Below, piece after piece: positions 7,711 through 64,000 of a DNA stretch of 64,000 bases; the first letter of the stretch is position 1, and each line of letters begins with the position of its first letter. The DNA comes from Candidatus Neochristensenella gallicola (lineage in GTDB: Bacteria > Bacillota > Clostridia > Christensenellales > QALW01), in the NCBI GenBank assembly GCA_904419735.1, contig CAJFSR010000014.1, forward strand, positions 5,955 through 69,954. Reading direction: 5' to 3'. Position numbers and translations under genes: made by a program. Below the pieces are notes generated by a model. That model was not told where the DNA came from and ran no database searches. It was given only the letters and a program-made list of their open reading frames with translations.

Positions 7711-7746
7711 AAGAGGATTTGCGGTAATTTATTTTGCTTTCAGTTA

Positions 7747-8017
7747 CCCCCCGGTTTACAAGGAACTGCACGGTCAGGATGAGTAAAATCTGCCTTTTTC
7801 TGTGCTGCTTTCATTCCATGCACGCTACCTGCCGTTCGGCTATGCTTTACCCGGCATAAATTTTATACATTCTGACTCTACAGCCCCGAACGGAGAGAAT
7901 TTCTTTATTTTTAAAGGCAAACGATAGAAGCGTACTGGATGTATACCCCTTGAGGATAACTCAGAAAAAGAAGGAATTATCCCGTTATGAGGCTTGCAGT
8001 TCCTTGTAAACTGAGGG
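7747..8017 (+). mobile_element. MITE family A, copy A1 (271 bp)
   Basis: Ends are TA|CCCCCCGGTTTACAAGGAA and TTCCTTGTAAACTGAGGG|TA. Collinear with the reference copy 34172-34438 over its whole length. No ORF. Confidence 0.85.
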
Positions 8018-8179
8018 TATTAACAGCCTTAATAAAGGATATATTGCAATTTAGACAATTTAATCTTATTTTAATCATATATGGCGCTATAAATATCTCC
8101 AAATTTTTATTGAATTTTCTTATGTTGTATGCTATACTCTATTATCAGAATTATATTTATATTGGAGGTGGTTCCATAC

Positions 8180-10057: not shown

Positions 10058-10283
10058 CCCTCAGTTTACAAGGAAGACGGTCAGAAGGCATAAAATATGC
10101 GTTCTGCTGCGTTGCTTTGATTCCATGTACGCCCGGTACATGTCGTTTCTGCGCGCTTTACCTGGCACAAATTTTATGCCTTTTGACTCTGGAGACCTCA
10201 AACGGAGAGAATTTCTTCATTTTCAAGGCAGACGAAGAAGGCGTACTGGGAGTACGCTGATTGAGGATAACGCAGAAAATGAT
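10058..10283 (+). mobile_element. MITE family A, copy A2, right end truncated
   Basis: The left end TA|CCCTCAGTTTACAAGGAA is intact. Homology to the reference copy stops after GAGGATAACGCAGAAAATGA (about 10283) and the right TIR is absent. Confidence 0.8.
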
Positions 10284-16203: not shown

Positions 16204-16471
16204 GCGTTAGTTTACAAAGAATAATGCGTTTAAAAACAGCTGGATTTGCGTTCCTGCTGAATTGCTTTGACTCATGTACGCCCGGCACATGCCGTTTCTG
16301 GGCCTTGCAGGAATGCAAATTTAATTATTTTTGGCTCTGCGGCCTCAGCCTGTGAAAATTTGTATGTTTTTAAGGCAGACGAGGGAAACGTGCAGAAACA
16401 CCGGCTGAGGATAATACAGAAAACGGGCAAAATTTCCCGGCTTCGGCGTGTTATCCGCTGTACATTGTTGC
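16204..16471 (+). mobile_element. MITE family A, diverged subfamily, copy A3 (268 bp)
   Basis: Ends are TA|GCGTTAGTTTACAAAGAATAATGCG and CGTGTTATCCGCTGTACATTGTTGC|TA. Shares the central blocks CATGTACGCCCGG, AAGGCAGACGAGGGA and GAGGATAA with the main family. The closest copy is 40527-40853. Confidence 0.7.
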
Positions 16472-24085: not shown

Positions 24086-25746
24086 TTAAACTATAGGTTT
24101 ATACTGGCTTTGCTCCGCAGGCTTAAGCCGTTTGAACGTATGAGCATATATTCCTAAAGAAATGGGCAGCATAATTATTTCCACGGCGAGCTGTGTCCAT
24201 ATCATGCCGTAGAGGCCAAAAAGCCGGTTCATCAGTATAAGCAGGGGGATGTTCAGCAAACCCTGGCGGCTGAAGGTAAGAAGGGCTGACTGCGCTCCCT
24301 TTCCCATGGCCTGGAGGGTATAGCTTATAAGAAAATTTACCGAAGTCAGGGGCACGGCCAGACAGGCAATGCGCAGGAAAGAGGCGCCCAAGGTGCTGGT
24401 CTGCTCTTCCCGTATGAACAGACGCAGTATTTGGGGCGCTCCCAGAGCAAAGCAGGCTACAAAGCAAGCTGACATAACAAGGGCGGTTTTCCAGGAGAAT
24501 ACGGCGACGTGGCGCATGCGCTTATAGTTTTTGGAGGCAAAAGTATACCCTAAATTGACAAGGGGATATACGCCTCCAGCGGCCTGATTCCGGCATTTTC
24601 TGCGTCGTCGTCAATAGGTGTACGTTCAGTACACCTCATTCCGCTTCCTTGAAAATGCCGAAATTAAACCTGCTGGAGGTCGAAGAGTCAGACAGCGGCC
24701 GTTTGGGTGCCCTGCAAGGCGCTTGAACGACGTGTACTGGACGTACACGGAGCGAAAAGCAACAGCGAAAAGCAACACAGCAGGACACCGAAACAGCCCT
24801 GTCCTGACCGTATATGCCCTTGTCAATTTAGGGTAGCCTACCAAAGGCATAAAACCCTGGCACAGCCCATGGATACGTTGAGCGGGAACTGATCTATGCG
24901 CTTGACTATGCCGTATGCCGCTACGGGTATATCCCCGTAATTCGAGGCCAGACTCACCATTACCATATTTGAAGCGTTGCCCAGAGCGGTAGCCAGGGCG
25001 GAAGCCAGCCCTACTGAAAAAACCGGCCGGGTGAAGGAGAAGGAAAAATATTTAGGATTCAGCGAAAGCTGGGTTCTGCCATGCAGCCGTTTGAACTGGA
25101 AGGCAAAAAAAGCGACAGAGGCCGCATTGGAAAAGGCGGTGGCTATTGCCGCGCCCGCAACGTCCATATCAAATAAGAATATGAGCACCGGATCCAGTAT
25201 TACATTCAGAATGCCCCCGAACATCATGCCTGCACTGGCCTGTTTGGCGTGTCCTTCGCTGCGCAGCAGATGGCCTAAGGTCAAGCTGGCTACAGTGGGT
25301 ATTCCGCCCAGAACAACCACCCATATAAGATAGCTTTCCGCATAACTGTAAGTATCGCTGCTTGCTCCTAAAAAATTCAAAAGGGGGTTCCGCGCAAAAA
25401 GGGTAACCAGAGAAAAAACCAGAGCCGCCGCTGCGCCGCCCCAGATGCCGAAAGCTGAGACATGCTTTATTTCCTGGTGCTTCATTGCTCCCAGCATTCG
25501 GGAGATAAGGCTGCTTGCGCCTAAACCGAACAGGTTCCCAATAGCGGTAAGCAGGTTGAACCAAGGGGAAACCAAGGAAACTGCGGCCACCATTAAAGGG
25601 TTCCCAATCTGGCCTATGAAAAAAGTGTCCGCCAGATTGTATATCATGGTAACAACCTAGCTTATAATGGTGGGAATGGCCAGAGTAGCTACGGCCCTTG
25701 GTACGCTCATGCTCTCAAACAGCTCTTTTTCGTTTTGTTTGTCCAT
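24086..25746 (-). pseudogene. MATE family efflux transporter inactivated by three lesions
   Basis: Lesion 1 is an in-frame TAG at 25657-25659 within PTIIS*VVTMIYNLADTFFIGQ, a position that my recollection of MATE N-termini would fill with Gln (unverified). Lesion 2 is a 1-nt frameshift near 24865-24875 (NVSMG then LCQGFMPLVGY in another frame). Lesion 3 is a MITE insertion at 24548-24833. Confidence 0.85.
24548..24833 (-). mobile_element. MITE family B, copy B1 (286 bp), inside the MATE gene
   Basis: TA|CCCTAAATTGACAAGGGGATATACG ... CGTATATGCCCTTGTCAATTTAGGG|TA, a 25-nt TIR matching 24/25. Carries an internal 13-bp tandem duplication GCGAAAAGCAACA x2. Strand is given relative to family A reference copy 34172-34438. 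Confidence 0.9.
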
Positions 25747-25935: not shown

Positions 25936-26207
25936 CCCTCAGTTTACAAGGAATTACATGCCTCGTAACGGGATAATATCTTCATTTTCTGCGTTATCCT
26001 CAATCGTAGTACGTCCAGTGCGCCTTTATCGCTTGCCTGGAAAACAAAGAAATTCTCGCCGTTTGAGGCCGCAGAGTCAGAATGCATAAAATTTATGCCG
26101 GGTAAAGCGCGCTTGAACGACATGTACCGAGTGTACATGGAATCAAGACAGCGCGCCGGTACGCAATTTTATGCATTCTAACCGTGCAGCTCTCTGTAAA
26201 CTGAGGT
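25936..26207 (-). mobile_element. MITE family A, copy A4 (inverted orientation)
   Basis: CCCTCAGTTTACAAGGAA ... CTCTCTGTAAACTGAGGT|TA. The left flank is TG instead of TA. The right end abuts the stop codon of the 26207-27568 gene. Confidence 0.85.
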
Positions 26208-27568
26208 TAATTGCCGGTGAAAATATTTGACAGCCAGCTGTCAAAAGTAGGGATCCAGCCGCCTCTAGAGCCGAAGCCGTGAGGCATGTTATCCAGCTGA
26301 AGGCGTTCAACATTTACGCCCGCTTCTTCGGCAGCATCGGCATTGGCCAGGAATTGGCGGTAAAACGGGTCTCTGGTGCCGTAGCAGTAGAAAGTGGGAG
26401 GCAGATTGCCCCTCCGGAGCAGTTCCACATCGGTTGTGCCTACGCTCAGGCGCCCGTAAAAGGAATATATCATTCCGCATGCCGCAGCGTCGGCCGACAG
26501 CATGTCCAGCTGGTCAGGTATGTAATCAGAATCCAGCGCCGTGCCGTTAACTTCCCCGTCAAAATTTAAGAGCATTTCGCCGCTGAGGATTCCGCCTGCG
26601 GAAAAACCCATTACTGCTATGTCCTTTTCCTCTATGCCGTATTCCTCAGCGTGAGCGCGGACAAAGCGCACCGCCCTGGCCAGGTCGAGGGCCCCTTCCT
26701 GCTGGGTATAGGGCCGCAGACGGTAATCCACGACAAAGCTCTGGTATCCAAGGGCGCTCAGAGCCTGGGCGACCTCTATCCCTTCGGGCTGGTCGCTGCG
26801 GAACTGGAATGCCCCGCCGGGACAGATAAGCACGGCCCCTTTGATTTCTACGCCCTGCGGTACCGGAAAGCTGGTAATATAAGGCCGGAAATCCGGGTCG
26901 TCCGAATAAGCGCCATTATTCTGCGTATATTGGGTTACTGCGGGAGCGTTGTTTTCTTCCCAGAGATAAAGAGTTTGCTGCGAATGGGGCGTTACTGCTG
27001 CGCTTAATACAGTGTTGCCGCCGCTTTCTTCGGGCATGCTGTCCTCTTTAAGCAGATTAAGGCTCTGCGCCCAGGCGACAATGGCTTGGTCCTGTGTTTC
27101 TTCTAAAATTATGAGGGCGCCGCCCAGCAGCGCGCCGGGCTGAAGCTGTGAGACTGCGTTTAAAATGCCGTCCGCATTATTGCCGCTGCCGGCGGCAAAA
27201 GGAAATATTGTCTTTGCTCCAAAATCATTTTGAGTTAAAAACTCCGCTATCTCTTCGGGCAGAATATTATTTTCTGCTTCAAAGCCCAGCAGGATAAATT
27301 CATACATGCCATAATCCTTTTGGGGATTTTCAGAAATAGGCAGTACTTGGGCGTTTAATGTTTCTCCCAGCAAAGAGGCGGCCCGGCTTATGGGGCTGTT
27401 CTCCTGGGAAGAAACATATGCAACGAGGATATTGCTCTGCTGGGGGGATGTGAAAATATTTCCCTGGCTGGGTGCGGCACTTTGCTGGGCTGGGCTTTGG
27501 GGGCTGCTGCAAGCGGCCATACAAAAAATCATACTGGATATAACTATCATTACCGCTGTTCTTTTCAT
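26207..27568 (-). CDS. lipoprotein with an N-terminal flavodoxin-like region and a C-terminal alpha/beta-hydrolase (esterase/lipase) domain
   Basis: Lipobox FCMAAC and nucleophile elbow GFSAGG within VMGFSAGGILSG. Also HAEEYGIEEKDIAVMG, typical of hydrolase fold-3 esterases. Confidence 0.7.
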   Translation of the reverse strand: MKRTAVMIVISSMIFCMAACSSPQSPAQQSAAPSQGNIFTSPQQSNILVAYVSSQENSPISRAASLLGETLNAQVLPISENPQKDYGMYEFILLGFEAENNILPEEIAEFLTQNDFGAKTIFPFAAGSGNNADGILNAVSQLQPGALLGGALIILEETQDQAIVAWAQSLNLLKEDSMPEESGGNTVLSAAVTPHSQQTLYLWEENNAPAVTQYTQNNGAYSDDPDFRPYITSFPVPQGVEIKGAVLICPGGAFQFRSDQPEGIEVAQALSALGYQSFVVDYRLRPYTQQEGALDLARAVRFVRAHAEEYGIEEKDIAVMGFSAGGILSGEMLLNFDGEVNGTALDSDYIPDQLDMLSADAAACGMIYSFYGRLSVGTTDVELLRRGNLPPTFYCYGTRDPFYRQFLANADAAEEAGVNVERLQLDNMPHGFGSRGGWIPTFDSWLSNIFTGN

Positions 27569-28437: not shown

Positions 28438-29607
28438 TCATTTAAAACACTCATTGAAGATTTGAAGTATTTCTTCATGAGTCATTTTCATATAACTGCC
28501 CGCAGAAATGCCGCATGAATAGGCAATTTCTTTTAACGGCGCTTCATCGCTGAGGCCCAGCTCCTTTAAAGTGGAGGGCAGGCCGATTTCCTTGATGAAA
28601 GCCTCCAGGGCGTCTATGCCTGCCAGAGCCAGCGCCTCGTCTGTTTTCCCGTTTCTGGGGATATTCCAGACATTTTGCGCAAACCGGACGAATTTAGGCA
28701 GGCCATATTTGTAAATATGACGGTAATAGGTTGGGTGCAGCACTGCCAGGCCGCAGCCGTGATTGCAGTTTGTATAAGCGCCCAGCTGGTGCTCCATATT
28801 GTGACATTCAAAATCACATTTTTTGCCCATTTTTATAAGACGGTTCTCCGCCATGGTGGAATCCCACATTAAATTGGAGCGGGCTGTATAATCAGTTGGG
28901 TTGATAATGGCGGCTCTCAGATTCTTAATGACGCTTTTCATGAGCGCCTCCATTATATCGTCCGAAACATTGTCCTGGTCGGGCTGGCTGAAATAAGTTT
29001 CCATGATATGGCTTAAAATATCAAAGCTGCCCGATACCATCTGTTTTTTGGGTACGCTGTATGTGTAAGTCGGGTCCATAAGGGCAAATGCGGGATTAAG
29101 CTTAGGATAGTCCCTGCCGGTTTTTATTTTTTTTGCTTCATTGGTTATGACTGCGCCTCCGTTGCATTCGCTGCCAGTACCCGCCGCGGTTACTATCACG
29201 CCTAACGGGAGGGGCTCAATTTCAATTACGCCCTGCCTTGCCCAGAAATCATCCCATATGTCTCCTTCATATCTGGCGGCAAGGGAGACAGCCTTAGAGC
29301 AGTCCATCACGGAGCCGCCGCCTACGGCCAGAATCATGTCTGCCTTTTCGCTTTTGGCCAGGCGGGCGCCCTCAAGCACTTTGGCGTAAGCAGGGTTGGA
29401 CATGATGCCTGAAAATTCTATAATTCTTTTGCACGCATTATTTAAAATGCCGGTTACTTCTTCGTATACGCCGTTTTGTTTTATAGAGCCGCCGCCGTAG
29501 GCAAGCATTACTGTTTGGGCTCTTTTTGTCAGGCAGGCAAGATATTCTTTGACGCAGCCCTGCCCGAAATATACTTTAGTTGCGTTTTGGAAAATAAAAT
29601 TGTTCAT
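28438..29607 (-). CDS. iron-containing alcohol dehydrogenase (butanol dehydrogenase/YqhD-like)
   Basis: 389 aa with GGGSVMDCSKA and the metal-binding His cluster CHNMEHQLGAYTNCNHGCGLA. Confidence 0.88.
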   Translation of the reverse strand: MNNFIFQNATKVYFGQGCVKEYLACLTKRAQTVMLAYGGGSIKQNGVYEEVTGILNNACKRIIEFSGIMSNPAYAKVLEGARLAKSEKADMILAVGGGSVMDCSKAVSLAARYEGDIWDDFWARQGVIEIEPLPLGVIVTAAGTGSECNGGAVITNEAKKIKTGRDYPKLNPAFALMDPTYTYSVPKKQMVSGSFDILSHIMETYFSQPDQDNVSDDIMEALMKSVIKNLRAAIINPTDYTARSNLMWDSTMAENRLIKMGKKCDFECHNMEHQLGAYTNCNHGCGLAVLHPTYYRHIYKYGLPKFVRFAQNVWNIPRNGKTDEALALAGIDALEAFIKEIGLPSTLKELGLSDEAPLKEIAYSCGISAGSYMKMTHEEILQIFNECFK

Positions 29608-29746
29608 AAAAACATCTCCTTAAATTGTATTTCGGCTGCTGTTTTCCGGCTATAGCGTGCGGGAAAAATATGAGGCCGCTGCGCCGCCGTCAAAGGGACA
29701 GAATATAATAGGATGCCGGGGAGGCGATTTTCTGGTCTGCCAGGGC

Positions 29747-29828
29747 GGGATCATTTGCAATATTGCGGCATCCCTGATTTTTTTCGGTTTGCCAGGTTGG
29801 GATTATTTGCAATATTGCGGCATCCCTG
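29747..29828. promoter_or_regulatory. two 30-bp direct repeats, each containing the perfect palindrome GCAATATTGC
   Basis: GGGATCATTTGCAATATTGCGGCATCCCTG (29747-29776) and GGGATTATTTGCAATATTGCGGCATCCCTG (29799-29828), 52 bp apart. Each is bracketed by GGGAT/ATCCC. Located 140-220 nt upstream of the ADH start. Confidence 0.4.
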
Positions 29829-29865
29829 CCTTCTGCTGCTTTGCCAGGTCAAAGGGTGCCCTCAT

Positions 29866-31966: not shown

Positions 31967-32287
31967 TTAGAACAGCCGTCCTTTCTTTGATGCAATAAGG
32001 AGGAGGCTGAATTGGGCCGCTTGCGCAATCTGCATATATTCCCAGACGAGCATTTGAAAAATCTGTTTTATGCCGTGCAGACAGTTTTATCAAATATCAG
32101 CTTAAAGCCCGGTTTTTCCAAAGCTAAGATATAGTCCCTCCACAAATGCGAAAATATCAAATATAACAGATATATTTTATTCGATTTTTGGCAGTATGTC
32201 AATATTTGCAGAGCACTCTTGAAATAGCTTAGTTTTTATTCCTTAAAAATGAAAAGCGGCGCATATTTTTATGCGCCGCTTACCCTA

Positions 32288-32539
32288 CCCTCAGTTTACA
32301 AGGAAGACGGCCAGAAGGTATAAAATATGCGTCCTGCTGCGTTGCTTTGACTCAATGTACGCCCGGTACCTGTCGGCACAAATTTTATGCCTTCTGACTC
32401 TGAGAGCTCAAACGGAGAGAAATTTCTTCAATTTTAAGGCCAATGATGGAAGCGTACTGGGAGTAAGCCCATTGAGGATAACGTGGAAAATGAAGAAATT
32501 ATCTCGTTATGAGGCGTATAATTCCTTGCAAATTACAGT
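32288..32539 (+). mobile_element. MITE family A, copy A5 (252 bp, decayed right TIR, internal deletion)
   Basis: TA|CCCTCAGTTTACAAGGAA ... TTCCTTGCAAATTACAGT|TA, with about 17 bp missing after CGGTACCTGTCG relative to the reference copy. Confidence 0.8.
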
Positions 32540-32550
32540 TAACGCAGTCT

Positions 32551-34093: not shown

Positions 34094-36095
34094 ATGAAGC
34101 TTATATTGAGGTTTATAAAGCCCCACTGGAAATTGTGCGCGGCTACCATTTTGCTTTTGATTGTGGACGTACCCTCAGTTTACAAGGAAGACGGTCAGAA
34201 GGCATAAAATATGCGTCCTGCTGCGTTGCTTTCGCTCCAAGTACGCCCGGTACATGTCGTTTCTGCGCCTTGCATGACACAAATTTTATGCCTTCTGACT
34301 TTGAGACCTCAAACGGAGAGAATTTCTTCATTTTCAAGGCAGACGAAGAAAGCGTACCGGGGAGTACGCTGATTGAGGATAACGCGGAAAATGAAGAAAT
34401 TATCACTTTGAGGCGTGTAGTTCCTTGTAAACTGAGGGTAACGGGAACCTTAATAATTTCTACGTTTGCCGCGGAAATGCTCAATCAGGGGACATCGGGA
34501 GCGTCCTTTGAAATGCTGCTTAATACCGGGCTGAAAATGGCGGCTGCATCAATTATCTCCAGCGTATGCGCTATTTTGGGCGGATATGCCTGCGCCGCTC
34601 TTTCAGCGCGGGTAGGCAAGGATATGCGGCTGGCTATTTATAATAAATCCTTAAAACTCGCCATATATGATTTCCGCCAGTTTGGAACGGCTTCTATTAC
34701 CACCAGAACGGTTTCGGATATTACCACCATTCAGTTTGCATTGACCAGCTTTATACAGATGGTGCTGCCTGTTCCGGTAATTTTCGTTGTGGCGCTTCTT
34801 TTGGCCTTCGGCCTGGATGTGGAAATGGGCGCTATACTGTTAATTGCAGTAGCGGTTGTTTTAGTTATCGCCCTGTTTATTATGAAAAGCGCTTCGCCTT
34901 TGTTTAGAAAATTACAAAAGCTGCTGGACAGGATGACCACTATTTTACTGGAAAACATAACCGGAGTCCGCGTGGTCCGCGCCTTCAATAATGAGCGCAG
35001 GGAGGAAGCGCGCATGGGAGAGGCTTTTTCCAATTACGCCCAGACTTCCATAAAGGCCAACCGGCGGTTCGCCAATCTGGACGGACTTTCCTTCCTGTTC
35101 ATAAATCTTTTTATAGTTATTGTATATTGGCTCAGCGGCGGGAGAATCAGCTCCGGGCATCTTCAGATTGGCGATATAACCGCCGTTATCGGTTATGCAA
35201 TGATGGTGCTGTTCTTTTTGATGATGGCCCAGATGGTTGTTCTGACCATGCCCCGCGCTTTGGAATGCTGCGGCCGCGTGCAGGCGGTTCTGGAGCATAC
35301 GCCCGAAATCCAGGACATGGTTCCGGAAAAAATGCAGGCTGCGTGCGAAGAGAAGAAGGACGAGGTGCTGGCATTTAAAGATGTTTCCTTTAGGTTTGCA
35401 GACGCGGAGGAGGATACTTTAAGCCATTTGAATTTCGTATGCAGACGAGGGGAGACCACGGCGATAATAGGCGGCACAGGCAGCGGCAAGTCCACCGTAG
35501 CTTCCCTGATCCTGCGCTTTCATGATGTTACCGGGGTGCGGTATGCTTAAACGGCACGGACGTCCGGCAGCTTACCCAGCATTATCTTAGGGATCACTTA
35601 GCCTATGTCCAGCAGAAGGCGTGGCTGTTTTCCGGCAGCATTGCGGACAATCTGCGGTACGGCAATAAAGACGCCGGGGAAGAAGAATTAATGCATGCAG
35701 CAGACGTAGCGCAGGCGGGGGATTTTATACGCGCTTTGCCTGAGGGGCTGGATTCCTATGTGGCGCAGGGCGGCACTAATTTTTCGGGCGGGCAGAAGCA
35801 GAGGCTGTCCATTGCCCGCGCGCTGGTGAAAAAGCCTGAGCTCTACATATTTGACGACAGCTTTTCCGCCCTGGATTTTAAAACTGATGCGGCTCTGCGC
35901 AAGGCGCTGGCGAAGGAAACCAAGGATTCCGCAGTGTTGATTATTGCCCAGAGGGTGAGCACCATCCAGCATGCAAATCAAATAGTAGTGCTTAACCAGG
36001 GGCAAATGGCCGGCATCGGCACCCATGAGGAGCTGCTGCAAAATTGTCCGGTTTATCGGGAAATCTATGAATCGCAGACCAAGGAGGCACATTAA
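34094..36095 (+). pseudogene. ABC exporter (fused TMD-NBD, MdlB/MsbA type) disrupted by a MITE insertion and a frameshift
   Basis: The N-terminus MKLILRFIKPHWKLCAATILLLIVDV (34094-34171) is separated from the rest of the TMD by the element at 34172-34438. The Walker A region GGTGSGKST is followed by a -1 frameshift in a G-run (35533-35536). The NBD continues in another frame (LSGGQKQRLSIARAL, IFDDSFSALD). Confidence 0.85.
34172..34438 (+). mobile_element. MITE family A, reference copy A6 (267 bp) inside the ABC exporter gene
   Basis: Has a perfect 20-nt inverted terminus including the flanking TA (TACCCTCAGTTTACAAGGAA / TTCCTTGTAAACTGAGGGTA). TA lies on both sides (34170-71 and 34439-40). 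Removing the element plus one TA restores the reading frame. Confidence 0.92.
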
Positions 36096-40526: not shown

Positions 40527-40853
40527 TTGTCAGCGAGCAGGGTATAATGCGGTTTAAAACAGCTTAATTTTCCTTCCTGCTGTGCTGTTTTTTCTCAATA
40601 CACGCCAGGTACAGCCGTGTATGTACCTTGCAGGGACGCAAATTCAACCGTTTTTGACTCTGCGGCCCCGGCCCATGGAAAATTGCCCGCTTCCAAGGCA
40701 GACGAGGGAGGCCCAGAGGCGCGCCCGCTGATCGGGGATAACGCCGAAAAGCATACCGGCCTGGGATAGCGCATAAAAGTACAACAACCGGGGTCAGCGC
40801 AGAAAACGGGCGAAATTTCGGGCTGCGGCGCATTATTCCCTGTACGCTTAACT
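40527..40853 (+). mobile_element. MITE family A, diverged subfamily, copy A7 (about 327 bp, ends approximate)
   Basis: TA|TTGTCAGCGAGCAGGGTATAATGCGGTTTAAAACAGC ... CAGAAAACGGGCGAAATTTCGGGCTGCGGCGCATTATTCCCTGTACGC. Collinear with 16204-16471 and shares AAGGCAGACGAGGGA and GGGGATAACGCCGAAAAG with the main family. Confidence 0.6.
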
Positions 40854-54898: not shown

Positions 54899-55171
54899 GC
54901 CTAAATTGACAAGGGGATACACGCCTCCAACGGCCTGATTCCGGCATTTTCTGCGTCGTCGTCAATGGGCGTGCGTTCAGTACGCCTCATTCCGCTTCCT
55001 TAAAAATGCCGGAATCAAACCTGCTGGAGGTCAAAGAGTCAGACAGCGGCCGTTTGGGTGCCCTGCAAGGCGCTTGGACAACGTGTGCTGGACGTACGCG
55101 GAGCGAAAAGCAGCACGGCAGGACACTCAAACAGCCCTGTCCTGACCGTATATGCCCTTGTTAATTCAGGG
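54899..55171 (-). mobile_element. MITE family B, copy B2 (273 bp)
   Basis: Collinear with B1 but lacks its 13-bp duplication. The left end is decayed (GCCTAAATTGACAAGGGGATACACG). The right end is TATATGCCCTTGTTAATTCAGGG|TA. Confidence 0.8.
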
Positions 55172-57150: not shown

Positions 57151-57522
57151 TTTATATATCCTCCGTGCTTTATTGTATTTCGCCAGCAGGTTAATTTTAA
57201 AACAATGATTGCATAACGTCAACAGTTTGAAGGGATATTTAGCTGACTTTTTATATAAAGCCCCTCTCTTTTTTATTTATATATGAGCAGATGAAAACCG
57301 GCACGGAAATTAAGCAACACTTTTATCCGGAAGGCGTTGTACTTGAGCAGACTGCGGCCAAAGGGACGAGCCTGGGCGTAGGAAGGCTTTTTTAGGACTG
57401 CCTGCGCGTGTGGAATACAGTTAGGCCATAAGCAATCCTCAATGGTTCAATAAAAAGTGCAGGAGATCTCATAAGAGATTTTCTGCCTGATGTTAGTCGT
57501 ATTCAGGTTGATAGTTTTTTTC

Positions 57523-58446
57523 CTATATCAGCTTTGTGATCCCTTCTATCGGGCCGTCAATGTCCGTTCCGCTTTTCCGGCTTATCTCTGAAAGCGTAAC
57601 CCTGCCCATCATGACTTTGCCGAGCGGAGAATTTAAGAGACTGAACTTCGGATTGATCTCAGCCGGATAGGGCTTTAAGCCGGGGTATGCCGGCAAAACG
57701 TCCTTTCGTTTTGTATAACGGTTCAATTCCGTCATATGCGCCTCGCACTACTTTGATATCGGAGTTTTTCTCGCCGAACTTTTCCCTCGGTCCGTTGCAT
57801 ATCTCTCTGCGAGAAGTTTTTTCTTCTCCGCCTGCTTTATAAATGTATATGCTGCGAAGAACGTGGACGGAGCAATCTCAGAACTGAAATATCCAATGCC
57901 CTGATTCCACACAAGCAGCTCAGAAACATCGTCCGGCGCAGCGCTGTCCGGATCGTGGATGTAAGTTTTGAGCAATTCCCGCATCGCCTGCCGCATGCGT
58001 CCCGCGCCTACTGTATTTGCAAGGGAAAGAAGCAGTCCCGTTTTATAAAGGAGATAGCGTTTTTATCGTTACAGGTTAGATCCCCAAAAGTCACGACGAT
58101 ATCCGCAAGGTCTTTGCCGATGAACGGGAAGCTGGTAAGAGCCGCCGGCCTAATGACGGTATCTCCCGCGTCCTTTTTTTCTTCTATACGATAAAAGTAT
58201 ACATGGATACCCGCCTGTGGCGACCTGATCCGTGAAACGCTCATAGCCAAGCTGTTCCATCACTTCGTAAAGAGGGATGGGTTCAAAGCTTTGAATGATA
58301 TGTAACCCCTTGTGAACAGGCATCTGCTCCGCCCGCTTCTTTAATCCGGGGAAGAAACTGCCCGAAATTCCTCTTACGTCTGCAACCTGAAACTCGCTTG
58401 TTTTGTCTCTCCAGTTTTCAAAACTCATTTTCAGCGGTCTTGTCAA
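57523..58446 (-). pseudogene. fragmented gene (four pieces in different frames); N-terminal part is DUF2249/TusA-like
   Basis: ORFs 58150-58446, 58008-58250, 57748-57996 and 57523-57735 follow each other on one strand with frame changes. The first piece carries VADVRG...HIIQSFEPIPLYEVMEQLGYE. Confidence 0.45.
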
Positions 58447-60489: not shown

Positions 60490-60585
60490 TTGTAACAATG
60501 CGGATAATTCCGCCGCATACAGCAGTTTAACTTCCTCCCGGATGTTTTTTAAGGGCGGTTGTTTGACAAAATATTATATTTTTAA

Positions 60586-64000
<3,415 letters not shown>

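What the first reader, a model, noticed from the sequence alone, without database searches (positions are those of the whole stretch)
7747..8017. Nine copies of TA-flanked structured TIR elements in 64 kb (about 3.8% of the window)
Family A main type: 7747-8017, 10058-10283 (truncated), 25936-26207 (inverted), 32288-32539 and 34172-34438. Diverged A subfamily: 16204-16471 and 40527-40853. Family B: 24548-24833 and 54899-55171. None has coding capacity and there is no transposase gene in the window. Most intact ends are flanked by TA: both ends for A1, A3, A5, A6 and B1, and one end for A2, A4, A7 and B2. The copy-to-copy divergence (decayed TIRs, internal deletions, a 13-bp duplication, a truncation) indicates several waves of activity. 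This density is unusually high for a bacterial chromosome segment that also contains core genes.
Basis: partly seen in the sequence, partly recalled or inferred. Interest (0 to 1): 0.7.

Follow-up and report, generated by a model that had tools for sequence, protein, structure and literature searches.

The report
TA-inserting structured MITE family, gut Clostridia
The nine repeats are real copies of one family of small, non-coding "jumping" DNA elements that insert at TA dinucleotides in an uncultured human-gut Clostridia species; this kind of element is well known, but the family appears undescribed, keeps an unusually conserved Y-shaped fold, and its transposase was not found.

Summary
A profile search finds exactly the nine reported copies and no others, and the terminal-repeat pattern is about five times above chance.

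Four empty sites show a single TA where the window has TA-element-TA: B2 in another strain, and A4, A5 and B1 in a sister lineage about 90% identical. A5 and B1 interrupt an ABC-exporter gene and a MatE gene. At least six of the nine copies are lineage-specific, and B2 is still polymorphic.

- Families A and B are one superfamily; B lies in the opposite orientation.
- The A2 "truncation" is a 57-bp deletion private to this strain.
- A3 has TG on one side; A4 has TA on both sides.

Relatives of 42 to 330 bp, almost all TA-flanked, occur in Lachnospiraceae-type, Christensenellales and Oscillospiraceae genomes, including Vescimonas fastidiosa.

The fold is a terminal stem plus two long hairpins. 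It is kept by compensatory changes (37 of 60 pairs), and in Vescimonas the shape and 273-nt length persist although the interior no longer aligns.

No transposase with matching ends was found, so mobilisation by an IS630/Tc1-mariner enzyme is inferred, not shown. This is a new member of a known kind, of moderate interest.

The parts
7747..8017 (+). Copy A1 (271 bp). The left terminal repeat is decayed (CCCCCCGGTTTACAAGG); the right one is intact. TA flanks lie at 7745-7746 and 8018-8019. It sits between recR and a CNNM/CorC gene.
   Evidence: absent from sister species L119 and L122
10058..10283 (+). Copy A2. It is cut short in this strain only, by a 57-bp deletion that removes the right terminal repeat and 11 bp of flank. 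Other strains carry the full 271 bp. It sits just upstream of the copA promoter region.
   Evidence: absent from L119 and L122
16204..16471 (+). Copy A6, an old diverged subfamily member (69-77% identical to the other window copies) with TA/TA flanks. It sits between a UvrA-like gene and an HSP20 gene.
24548..24833 (-). Copy B1 (286 bp; 273 bp without the private 13-bp duplication). It is inserted at a TA inside a MatE efflux gene, splitting it into fragments at 24086-24517 and 24838-25647.
   Evidence: empty site in L115, where MatE is intact at 451 aa
25936..26207 (-). Copy A3 (272 bp). It is shared with sister lineage L115, so it is the oldest datable insertion. Its last base (T at 26207) together with the TA flank forms the TAA stop codon of the hydrolase gene 26207-27568(-).
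32283..32539 (+). Copy A4 (252 bp, with an internal deletion and a decayed right end), plus five extra bases CCCTA at 32283-32287. The target TA lies at 32281-32282 and 32540-32541. It sits next to the terminator of a LysR gene.
   Evidence: empty site in L115
34172..34438 (+). Copy A5 (267 bp, with the best-preserved ends). It is inserted at a TA inside codon 26 of an ABC-exporter gene, whose N-terminal fragment is 34094-34171 and whose remainder is 34441-35550.
   Evidence: empty site in L115, where the ABC gene is intact at 577 aa
40527..40853 (+). Copy A7 (327 bp), a diverged subfamily member with about 60 extra internal bases and decayed ends. Its flanks are TA/TT.
54899..55171 (-). Copy B2 (273 bp), 93% identical to B1. 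It is polymorphic within the species. Its left flank has decayed to CA and its first base to G.
   Evidence: empty site GGGACATGC-TA-AGCGTAAAAG in strain L102

Best explanation
The nine sequences are copies of a single superfamily of non-autonomous DNA transposons (MITEs).

Anatomy: each unit is about 270 bp. It is bounded by terminal inverted repeats of about 25 bp (TA|CCCTCAGTT(T/G)ACAAGG...), has no coding capacity, and is flanked by a duplicated TA.

Shown:
- The elements insert at a TA, preferentially in the context WTAW (W = A or T), and duplicate it.
- They have moved recently. At least six of the nine copies are absent from the closest sampled relatives, and one is still polymorphic within the species.
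- Insertions can destroy genes, here a MatE gene and an ABC-exporter gene.
- Copies later decay by deletions at short repeats. In other genomes this leaves forms of about 160 bp, "minis" of about 43 bp and 17-bp "solo" scars.

Inferred:
- Movement is cut-and-paste by a DDE transposase supplied in trans that binds the 25-bp ends, most likely of the IS630/Tc1-mariner type. That is the main bacterial family that uses TA exclusively and duplicates it. Its gene is not in the window and was not found elsewhere.
- The interior folds on either strand into a terminal stem plus two hairpins of about 100 nt. This fold is kept by compensatory substitutions across genera. Its role is unknown. My best guess is a DNA-level role, such as cruciform or hairpin formation that brings the two ends of a very short element together, rather than a strand-specific RNA.
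For: Repeat family and termini.

TA duplication:
- Empty sites: B2 in strain L102; A4, A5 and B1 in sister lineage L115.
- Removing the element plus one TA restores the MatE motif MPLVGYTFA.
- The same removal gives an in-frame ABC exporter whose Pfam ABC_membrane match now starts at profile position 4 instead of 16.
- In other genomes 26 of 30 TIR-bounded elements are TA/TA, with A or T favoured at -1 and +1.

Other features:
- No coding capacity.
- No transposase domain in the window.
- Wide distribution: copies occur in at least 8 Clostridia genomes, including the isolates Lachnoclostridium sp. An138 and Vescimonas fastidiosa MM35.
- Structure: z-scores of -9 to -12.8 on both strands. 92% of cells are paired, and 37 of 60 pairs carry double changes against 22.4 +/- 2.2 in shuffles and 10-18 when partners are slid.

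Established knowledge: Tc1/mariner/IS630 elements integrate only at TA and duplicate it. The transposase alone suffices and protects a terminal repeat of about 24 bp (PMC2170065). Mariner transposase can move MITEs of 80-120 bp in vitro (PMC2642840). The pneumococcal repeat RUP is a TA-inserting MITE attributed to IS630-Spn1 (PMC2229807).
Against: No autonomous element with these ends was found:
- No TIR pair more than 400 bp apart in 88 genome loci.
- No SPELNPIE-type DDE motif in 1.04 Mb of fetched DNA.
- Only further MITE copies in the plasmid and phage collections.
- Two specific metagenome scans found nothing, and the viral scan gave only chance hits.

A 2-bp TA duplication is also compatible with some IS5-family (IS427-type) enzymes. 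Because TA is a palindrome, it is formally also compatible with insertion next to a TA without any duplication.

The strong conservation of the internal fold is not explained by a simple model in which only the terminal repeats matter. The 43-bp minis may or may not be mobile themselves.
Confidence: 0.78

Rival explanations
1. The same kind of element, but mobilised by a different DDE family that makes 2-bp TA duplications, for example an IS5-family IS427-type or ISL2-type enzyme, rather than IS630/Tc1-mariner.
For: Only the target duplication and the length of the terminal repeats are known, and no transposase was identified. The element starts with CCCT, not with the CAG/CAGT typical of Tc1-type ends; the mariner-like core TCAGTGTACAAG begins 3 nt inside the end.
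Against: Strict TA use with a WTAW context in 26 of 30 insertions is the hallmark of IS630/Tc1-mariner (PMC2170065). The core of the terminal repeat resembles the Mos1 ITR at 12 of 13 positions for one variant, although that comparison was chosen after the fact.
Confidence: 0.12
2. Palindromic elements moved as single-stranded DNA by an HUH/Y1 transposase, in the manner of REPINs with their RAYT transposases or of IS200/IS605-associated palindromic elements (PATEs). On this view the conserved hairpins are the recognition structures, and the TA is a target next to which the element inserts without a true duplication.
For: The hairpin architecture is conserved by compensatory change even where the sequence no longer aligns. 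Both strands fold. One strand is on average 5 kcal/mol more stable (15 of 19 copies). The back-to-back minis look like REP doublets.
Against: The perfect 25-bp terminal inverted repeats with TA on both sides, in both orientations, fit double-strand DDE transposition. REPINs and IS200/IS605 derivatives lack terminal inverted repeats and target duplications. The ORFs lying between or beside paired elements in L009 and L014 did not look like a Y1 transposase by eye; no systematic search for one was made.
Confidence: 0.06
3. A family of structured non-coding RNA genes or cis-regulatory RNA modules that spread through the genome, with function coming first and mobility second.
For: Strong covariation. 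Conserved sequence blocks in internal loops. The canonical strand is slightly more stable.
Against: There is no Rfam match, even at permissive thresholds. Both strands fold almost equally well. The excess of G-U over A-C pairs is weak (21 against 10 in the pairs predicted on both strands; 126 against 94 in the union). There is no orientation bias relative to flanking genes (10 co-directional against 5 antisense). No conserved promoter or terminator was found. Some copies sit inside coding genes, which they destroy.
Confidence: 0.03
4. Decayed fragments of a full-length insertion sequence rather than a MITE family in its own right.
For: Many copies are decayed or truncated (A2, A4, A7), and partial copies exist in other genomes.
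Against: The unit length is uniform at about 270-273 bp with both ends present across at least three bacterial families. There is no remnant of coding sequence in any frame. No longer version appears in any fetched locus.
Confidence: 0.02

Closest known systems
Correia elements / NEMIS of Neisseria
   Same: Both are small, non-coding and abundant. Both have terminal inverted repeats of about 24-26 bp and a TA target duplication, and are mostly intergenic. Both have internal-deletion size variants, and neither has an identified transposase (PMC2229807).
   Different: Correia elements are 100-155 bp, proteobacterial, and carry IHF-binding and promoter motifs. The present elements are about 270 bp, occur in gut Clostridia, have unrelated termini, and have a two-hairpin interior maintained by covariation.
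RUP of Streptococcus pneumoniae, attributed to IS630-Spn1
   Same: Both are MITEs of Firmicutes that insert at TA, with stop codons in all six frames. RUP is the precedent for trans-mobilisation by an IS630-family transposase (PMC2229807).
   Different: RUP is 107 bp and its ends match a known insertion sequence. Here no matching IS was found, and the element is 2.5 times longer with a conserved Y-shaped fold.
ERIC/IRU elements of enterobacteria
   Same: Both are TA-flanked imperfect palindromes whose transcripts fold into long stem-loops, and both sit in intergenic, co-transcribed positions (PMC2229807).
   Different: ERIC is 127 bp with short (about 7 bp) terminal repeats and orientation-dependent effects on mRNA stability. 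No orientation bias was seen here.
Stowaway and mariner-derived MITEs of eukaryotes; Mos1 mini-elements
   Same: Both use a TA target and a palindromic architecture and are mobilised in trans by Tc1/mariner transposases. Mos1 transposase moves MITEs of 80-120 bp in vitro (PMC2642840). The core of the terminal repeat here, TCAGT(G/T)TACAAG, resembles the Mos1 ITR TCAGGTGTACAAG.
   Different: Those elements have eukaryotic hosts. The resemblance of the ends is short, offset by 3 nt from the terminus, and was chosen after the fact.
REPINs mobilised by RAYT transposases
   Same: Both are short palindromic doublets that form hairpins and reach high copy number in intergenic DNA. The minis of about 43 bp resemble REP doublets.
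   Different: REPINs have no terminal inverted repeats of the classical IS kind, make no target duplication, and are tied to a RAYT gene. Here the TA duplication is shown by four empty sites.

Membership tests
Bacterial MITE (generic) | Terminal inverted repeats | tested here: met
   Terminal repeats of 18-25 bp, CCCTMARTTKACAAGG..., at both ends
Bacterial MITE (generic) | Target-site duplication shown by comparing filled and empty sites | tested here: met
   The empty sites for B2 and for A4, A5 and B1 each carry a single TA
Bacterial MITE (generic) | Small size and no coding capacity | tested here: met
   Elements are 42-330 bp, and no reading frame is open across the copies
Bacterial MITE (generic) | Multiple dispersed copies with presence/absence polymorphism | tested here: met
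   Nine copies in the window, copies in at least 8 other genomes, and B2 polymorphic within the species
Bacterial MITE (generic) | An autonomous insertion sequence with matching termini that supplies the transposase | tested here: inconclusive
   Not found in the 88 genome loci, 1.04 Mb of fetched DNA, or the plasmid, phage, viral and metagenome scans. Whole genomes could not be searched.
IS630/Tc1-mariner-mobilised element | Exclusive TA target with a 2-bp TA duplication | tested here: met
   26 of 30 elements in other genomes are TA/TA, in a WTAW context
IS630/Tc1-mariner-mobilised element | Terminal repeats of roughly 20-30 bp, the size of the binding site of a paired helix-turn-helix domain | tested here: met
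   About 25 bp are shared between the two ends; ISY100 transposase protects a 24-bp repeat (PMC2170065)
IS630/Tc1-mariner-mobilised element | A cognate DDE/DDD transposase whose own element carries the same ends | tested here: inconclusive
   None found
IS630/Tc1-mariner-mobilised element | Excision footprints of TA + 2-3 terminal nucleotides + TA | tested here: inconclusive
   One footprint-like TA-CCC-TA lies beside A4, and flanks in L011 and L065 look similar. That is about 3 cases where about 1 is expected, which is not significant.
REPIN/RAYT | No target duplication; association with a Y1 (RAYT) gene flanked by the repeats | tested here: not met
   The TA duplication is shown. The ORFs lying between or beside paired elements did not look like a Y1 transposase by eye.
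Any Rfam RNA family | A covariance-model match at or near the gathering score | tested here: not met
   No hits at gathering threshold. At permissive thresholds there were only chance miRNA-model hits at E > 0.06.
Correia, RUP or ERIC (specific named families) | Sequence similarity of the termini and body to the family consensus | not tested
The hosts and sizes differ, and text searches for the terminal-repeat sequence found no paper.

The most novel reading that the evidence does not exclude
The conserved Y-shaped interior (two hairpins of about 100 nt closed by the terminal-repeat stem, at a fixed length of about 273 nt) is a selected functional module rather than a passenger. One possibility is a cruciform or single-strand fold that brings the two ends of a very short element together so that a transposase can pair them. 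Another is that the fold is the recognition structure of a still unknown mobilising enzyme not of the IS630 type. Either would make this a structure-dependent class of TA-inserting elements, spread across several families of gut Clostridia.
Probability: 0.2. Interest if true: 0.65.

Novelty: new member of a known kind. Interest (0 to 1): 0.4.

Why it matters
If correct, this is an apparently undescribed and recently active MITE superfamily in common, mostly uncultured human-gut and animal-gut Clostridia.

- It inactivates genes. Here it has disrupted a MatE efflux gene and an ABC-exporter gene.
- It sits next to promoters and terminators.
- It breaks metagenome assemblies at its copies.
- It provides presence/absence markers that separate strains and sister species.

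Two further points give it value beyond one more repeat family. First, the internal fold is conserved by covariation even where the sequence has diverged beyond alignment. This offers a clean system for asking why MITEs are palindromic. Second, at copy A3 the host appears to have repaired a stop codon using the terminal base of the element, with different substitutions in two lineages.

Tried and rejected
1. Search for the autonomous partner. None of these found one:
- an inverted partner of each terminal repeat within 4 kb in the 88 genome loci;
- a regular-expression search for the IS630/Tc1 DDE signature in all six frames of 1.04 Mb of fetched DNA;
- blastn of whole elements and of a 47-nt repeat doublet against the plasmid and phage collections, which found only more MITE copies, in Vescimonas and in a faecal contig;
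- a scan of viral contigs, which gave 5 chance hits;
- two metagenome scans designed to exclude MITE interiors, both empty.

2. Known RNA family. Rfam gave nothing at gathering or permissive thresholds.

3. Strand-specific RNA function. The G-U against A-C asymmetry is weak, there is no orientation bias relative to flanking genes, and the only promoter-like match inside family A is weak, at 9 of 12 positions. I rejected this as the main explanation.

4. An inward-facing promoter formed from the -35-like TTGACA in the terminal repeat. No suitably spaced -10 box follows it, judged by eye; rejected.

5. A micro-ORF after GAGGA...ATG in family A, read by eye. It is not conserved in family B; rejected.

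6. An inner repeat related to the terminal repeat (an IR/DR architecture). The only similarity is the motif CAAGG, which is too weak to pursue.

7. Minus-strand ORFs at 60574-62700 as possible transposases. They have no Pfam hit and are antisense artefacts of a PFOR gene that runs off the end of the window.

8. Base-level empty sites for A1 and A2 in the sister species. The elements are absent there, but the intergenic DNA is too diverged to align.

9. Literature. Searches by the terminal-repeat sequence and by keywords found nothing on this family.

Full report

Yes. The repeat finder recovers the reported copies. Alignments show two groups:
- Group A: TA|CCCTCAGTTTACAAGGAA...TTCCTTGTAAACTGAGGG|TA.
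- Group B: TA|CCCTAAATTGACAAGGGG...CCCTTGTCAATTTAGGG|TA.

The shared terminal pattern CCCTMARTTKACAAGG, with up to 3 mismatches, occurs 14 times against 2.8 +/- 1.5 in shuffles. An nhmmer profile built from 19 full-length copies finds exactly the nine reported places (E 1e-46 to 1e-79) and nothing else in the window.

The profile also shows that A and B are homologous, with B in the opposite orientation. The canonical orientation is + for A1, A2, A4, A5, A6 and A7, and - for A3, B1 and B2.

The copies sum to 2,442 bp (3.8% of the window). No reading frame is open across copies. None of the genes called in or beside the window has a transposase domain. Rfam and tRNA scans are empty.

**2. Host and context.**

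The window is chromosomal DNA with core genes: dnaX, ybaB, recR, a copper ATPase, a UvrA-like gene, adhE and a PFOR gene.

Exact copies of its proteins occur in hundreds of human-gut metagenome assemblies. NCBI MAG GCA_019117635.1 and ENA ERZ28573923 scaffold_507 are about 100% identical to the window.

The nearest named relatives of its CNNM protein are Blautia (64-68% identity) and, further off, a Lachnospiraceae MAG (61%). MAG UMGS1037 appears to be a sister species, with CNNM 87% identical.

**3. Target duplication and mobility (shown).**

Empty sites:
- Strain L102 lacks B2 and reads GGGACATGC-TA-AGCGTAAAAG. The window reads GGGACATGC-cA-[B2]-TA-AGCGTAAAAG.
- Sister lineage L115 is about 90% identical and syntenic to the window. 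It has an intact ABC exporter (577 aa) and an intact MatE gene (451 aa), and shows clean empty sites for three copies:
  - A5: GTGGACG-TA-ACGGGAACC.
  - A4: GCCGCT-TA-ACGTAGCC.
  - B1: GGCAAAATTA-TA-GCCTACC.

Restored reading frames:
- Removing B1 plus one TA restores the MatE motif MPLVGYTFA.
- Removing A5 plus one TA gives an in-frame exporter...LLLIVDV|TGTLIIS.... Its Pfam ABC_membrane match now begins at profile position 4 instead of 16.

Age of the copies:
- A3 is present at the orthologous place in L115, so it is older than that split.
- A1 and A2 are absent from sister species L119-L122.
- So at least six of the nine copies are lineage-specific, and one is still polymorphic.
- Pairwise identities run from 95% (A5 with A2), through about 79-88% among the other A1-A5 copies, to about 68-78% for A6, A7 and A-versus-B pairs. 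B1 and B2 are 93% identical. This fits several periods of activity.

Private changes in this strain are the 57-bp deletion in A2 and the 13-bp duplication in B1.

**4. Distribution.**

A scan of one genome per species, followed by blastn and nhmmer, found real copies in these genomes:
- UMGS1037;
- a Merdimonas MAG;
- Lachnoclostridium sp. An138;
- a Dorea MAG;
- several Lachnospiraceae MAGs;
- Candidatus Merdisoma;
- a Christensenellales MAG;
- a Clostridium MAG.

The plasmid and phage collections added three copies with a variant end, CCATCGRTTGACAAGGG:
- a 273-bp copy in Vescimonas fastidiosa MM35;
- a 47-bp mini in the same organism;
- a 328-bp copy in a faecal contig.

Of 30 TIR-bounded elements, 26 are flanked by TA on both sides, with A or T favoured at positions -1 and +1.

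Size classes are about 270-286, 206, about 160, 65 and 39-48 bp. The shorter forms are internal deletions at short repeats. There are also 17-bp solo units, TA|CCCTCAGTTGACAAGGG|TA. I read these as the products of slippage across the base of the palindrome, at the repeated AGG.

An identical 43-bp mini occurs at two different loci in two Merdimonas MAGs. This could mean that minis can move, or that the same deletion recurs.

**5. Structure.**

A5 and B1 fold on either strand into a closing stem, formed by the two terminal repeats, plus two long hairpins. The z-scores are -9.2 to -12.8.

On the 19-copy alignment:
- 92.2% of cells are paired.
- 37 of 60 pairs carry changes on both sides, against 22.4 +/- 2.2 in shuffles (0 of 500 reach the observed value) and 10-18 when partners are slid.

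The Vescimonas copy keeps the same shape and the same 273-nt length (z = -11.2). Only about 40 nt or fewer at each end still align to the profile.

The evidence for a single functional strand is weak:
- G-U against A-C counts are 21 against 10 in the pairs predicted on both strands, and 126 against 94 in the union.
- The canonical strand is on average 5 kcal/mol more stable (15 of 19 copies, p = 0.008, copies not independent).
- Orientation relative to flanking genes is 10 co-directional against 5 antisense.
- No convincing promoter or terminator lies inside the element.

I conclude that the fold is maintained, but that a DNA-level cause is more likely than a strand-specific RNA. Such a cause could be selection on cruciform or hairpin formation, or homogenisation of the palindrome arms.

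**6. Mechanism.**

Shown: the elements are TA-specific, TA-duplicating, non-coding, bounded by terminal inverted repeats, and recently mobile.

Inferred: cut-and-paste by a transposase supplied in trans. IS630/Tc1-mariner is the best candidate, for three reasons:
- These enzymes integrate only at TA and duplicate it. They need only the transposase and a terminal repeat of about 24 bp (PMC2170065).
- They can move very short MITEs in vitro (PMC2642840).
- A Firmicutes precedent exists in RUP and IS630-Spn1 (PMC2229807).

A weak supporting lead is that the core of the terminal repeat, TCAGT(G/T)TACAAG, resembles the Mos1 ITR TCAGGTGTACAAG. A second weak lead is the footprint-like TA-CCC-TA beside A4.

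The partner transposase was not found in any accessible data. Whole genomes could not be searched.

**7. Comparison with known elements, and verdict.**

The family behaves like Correia, RUP, ERIC and Stowaway-type MITEs and meets every generic MITE criterion except an identified autonomous partner. It fails the REPIN criterion of no target duplication, and it matches no Rfam family.

It differs from the classical bacterial MITEs in four ways:
- its size (about 270 bp against 100-155 bp);
- its host range (several families of gut Clostridia);
- its two-hairpin interior, conserved by covariation;
- its apparent absence from the literature searched.

It is a new member of a known kind, of moderate interest (0.4). 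A minority reading (about 0.2) is that the conserved fold reflects a structure-dependent mobilisation mechanism.

Noticed in passing
window 26205-26209; L115 1430-1440: The end base of A3 next to the hydrolase gene 26207-27568(-) is T in the window, giving the stop codon TAA, and C in sister lineage L115, giving TAG. The family consensus G would give TAC and extend the ORF by 38 codons. The insertion seems to have hit the TA of the stop codon, and the stop was restored by a different substitution in each lineage.
   Followed up: partly
window 32281-32287: The left flank of A4 reads TA-CCC-TA before the element, where the empty site in L115 has a single TA. This looks like a mariner-type excision footprint followed by re-insertion, or like a 5-bp slippage duplication. 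Similar CCC or GGG bases lie next to elements in L011 and L065, but the count is not significant.
   Followed up: partly
window 24086-25647 and 34094-36095: Both genes hit by insertions carry further lesions. MatE has a 1-nt frameshift about 24 nt upstream of B1. The ABC exporter is also broken in its ATPase domain, with separate pieces ending at 35550 and starting at 35691. The sister lineage L115 has both genes intact.
   Followed up: partly
L012 3504-4016; L077 4501-5338: In two other genomes, a single copy of the terminal repeat (containing TTGACA or TTTACA) lies 12-27 nt upstream of the start codon of a MerR-family regulator gene. This may be coincidence, or the repeat may supply a portable -35 box.
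   Followed up: no
L109 3476-3522 (Vescimonas fastidiosa pMM35_02): A 47-bp mini element sits in the TA of a TATAAT box about 30 nt upstream of a YeiH-family gene.
   Followed up: no
window about 9981 (L092 13390-13580); window about 42541 (L100 and L101 3000-3367): Other strains carry unrelated extra segments at these two points: about 190 bp upstream of A2 in L092, and 366 bp containing a terminator-like hairpin in L100 and L101. These may be other small mobile elements or simple indels.
   Followed up: no
window 57359-58140: A segment of about 780 bp between the GH2 gene and the Fer4 gene is missing from strain L102. It has no terminal repeats of the MITE family.
   Followed up: no
window 29728-29831: A tandem pair of 52-bp units, 85% identical, lies about 120 bp upstream of the Fe-ADH gene 28438-29607(-). 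It might be a duplicated regulatory site.
   Followed up: no
L009 2109-2400; L040 445-520: Elements cluster. In L009 a degenerate solo unit shares its TA with a full-length copy, and L040 has several repeat fragments side by side. This suggests that the TA regenerated beside an element is reused as a target.
   Followed up: no
L006 1-57; L071 1-131: The same terminal repeat, flanked by TA, is followed by a different GC-rich interior that runs off the contig end in an Oscillospiraceae MAG and a Bacillota MAG. These could be other subfamilies or the ends of a longer element.
   Followed up: no
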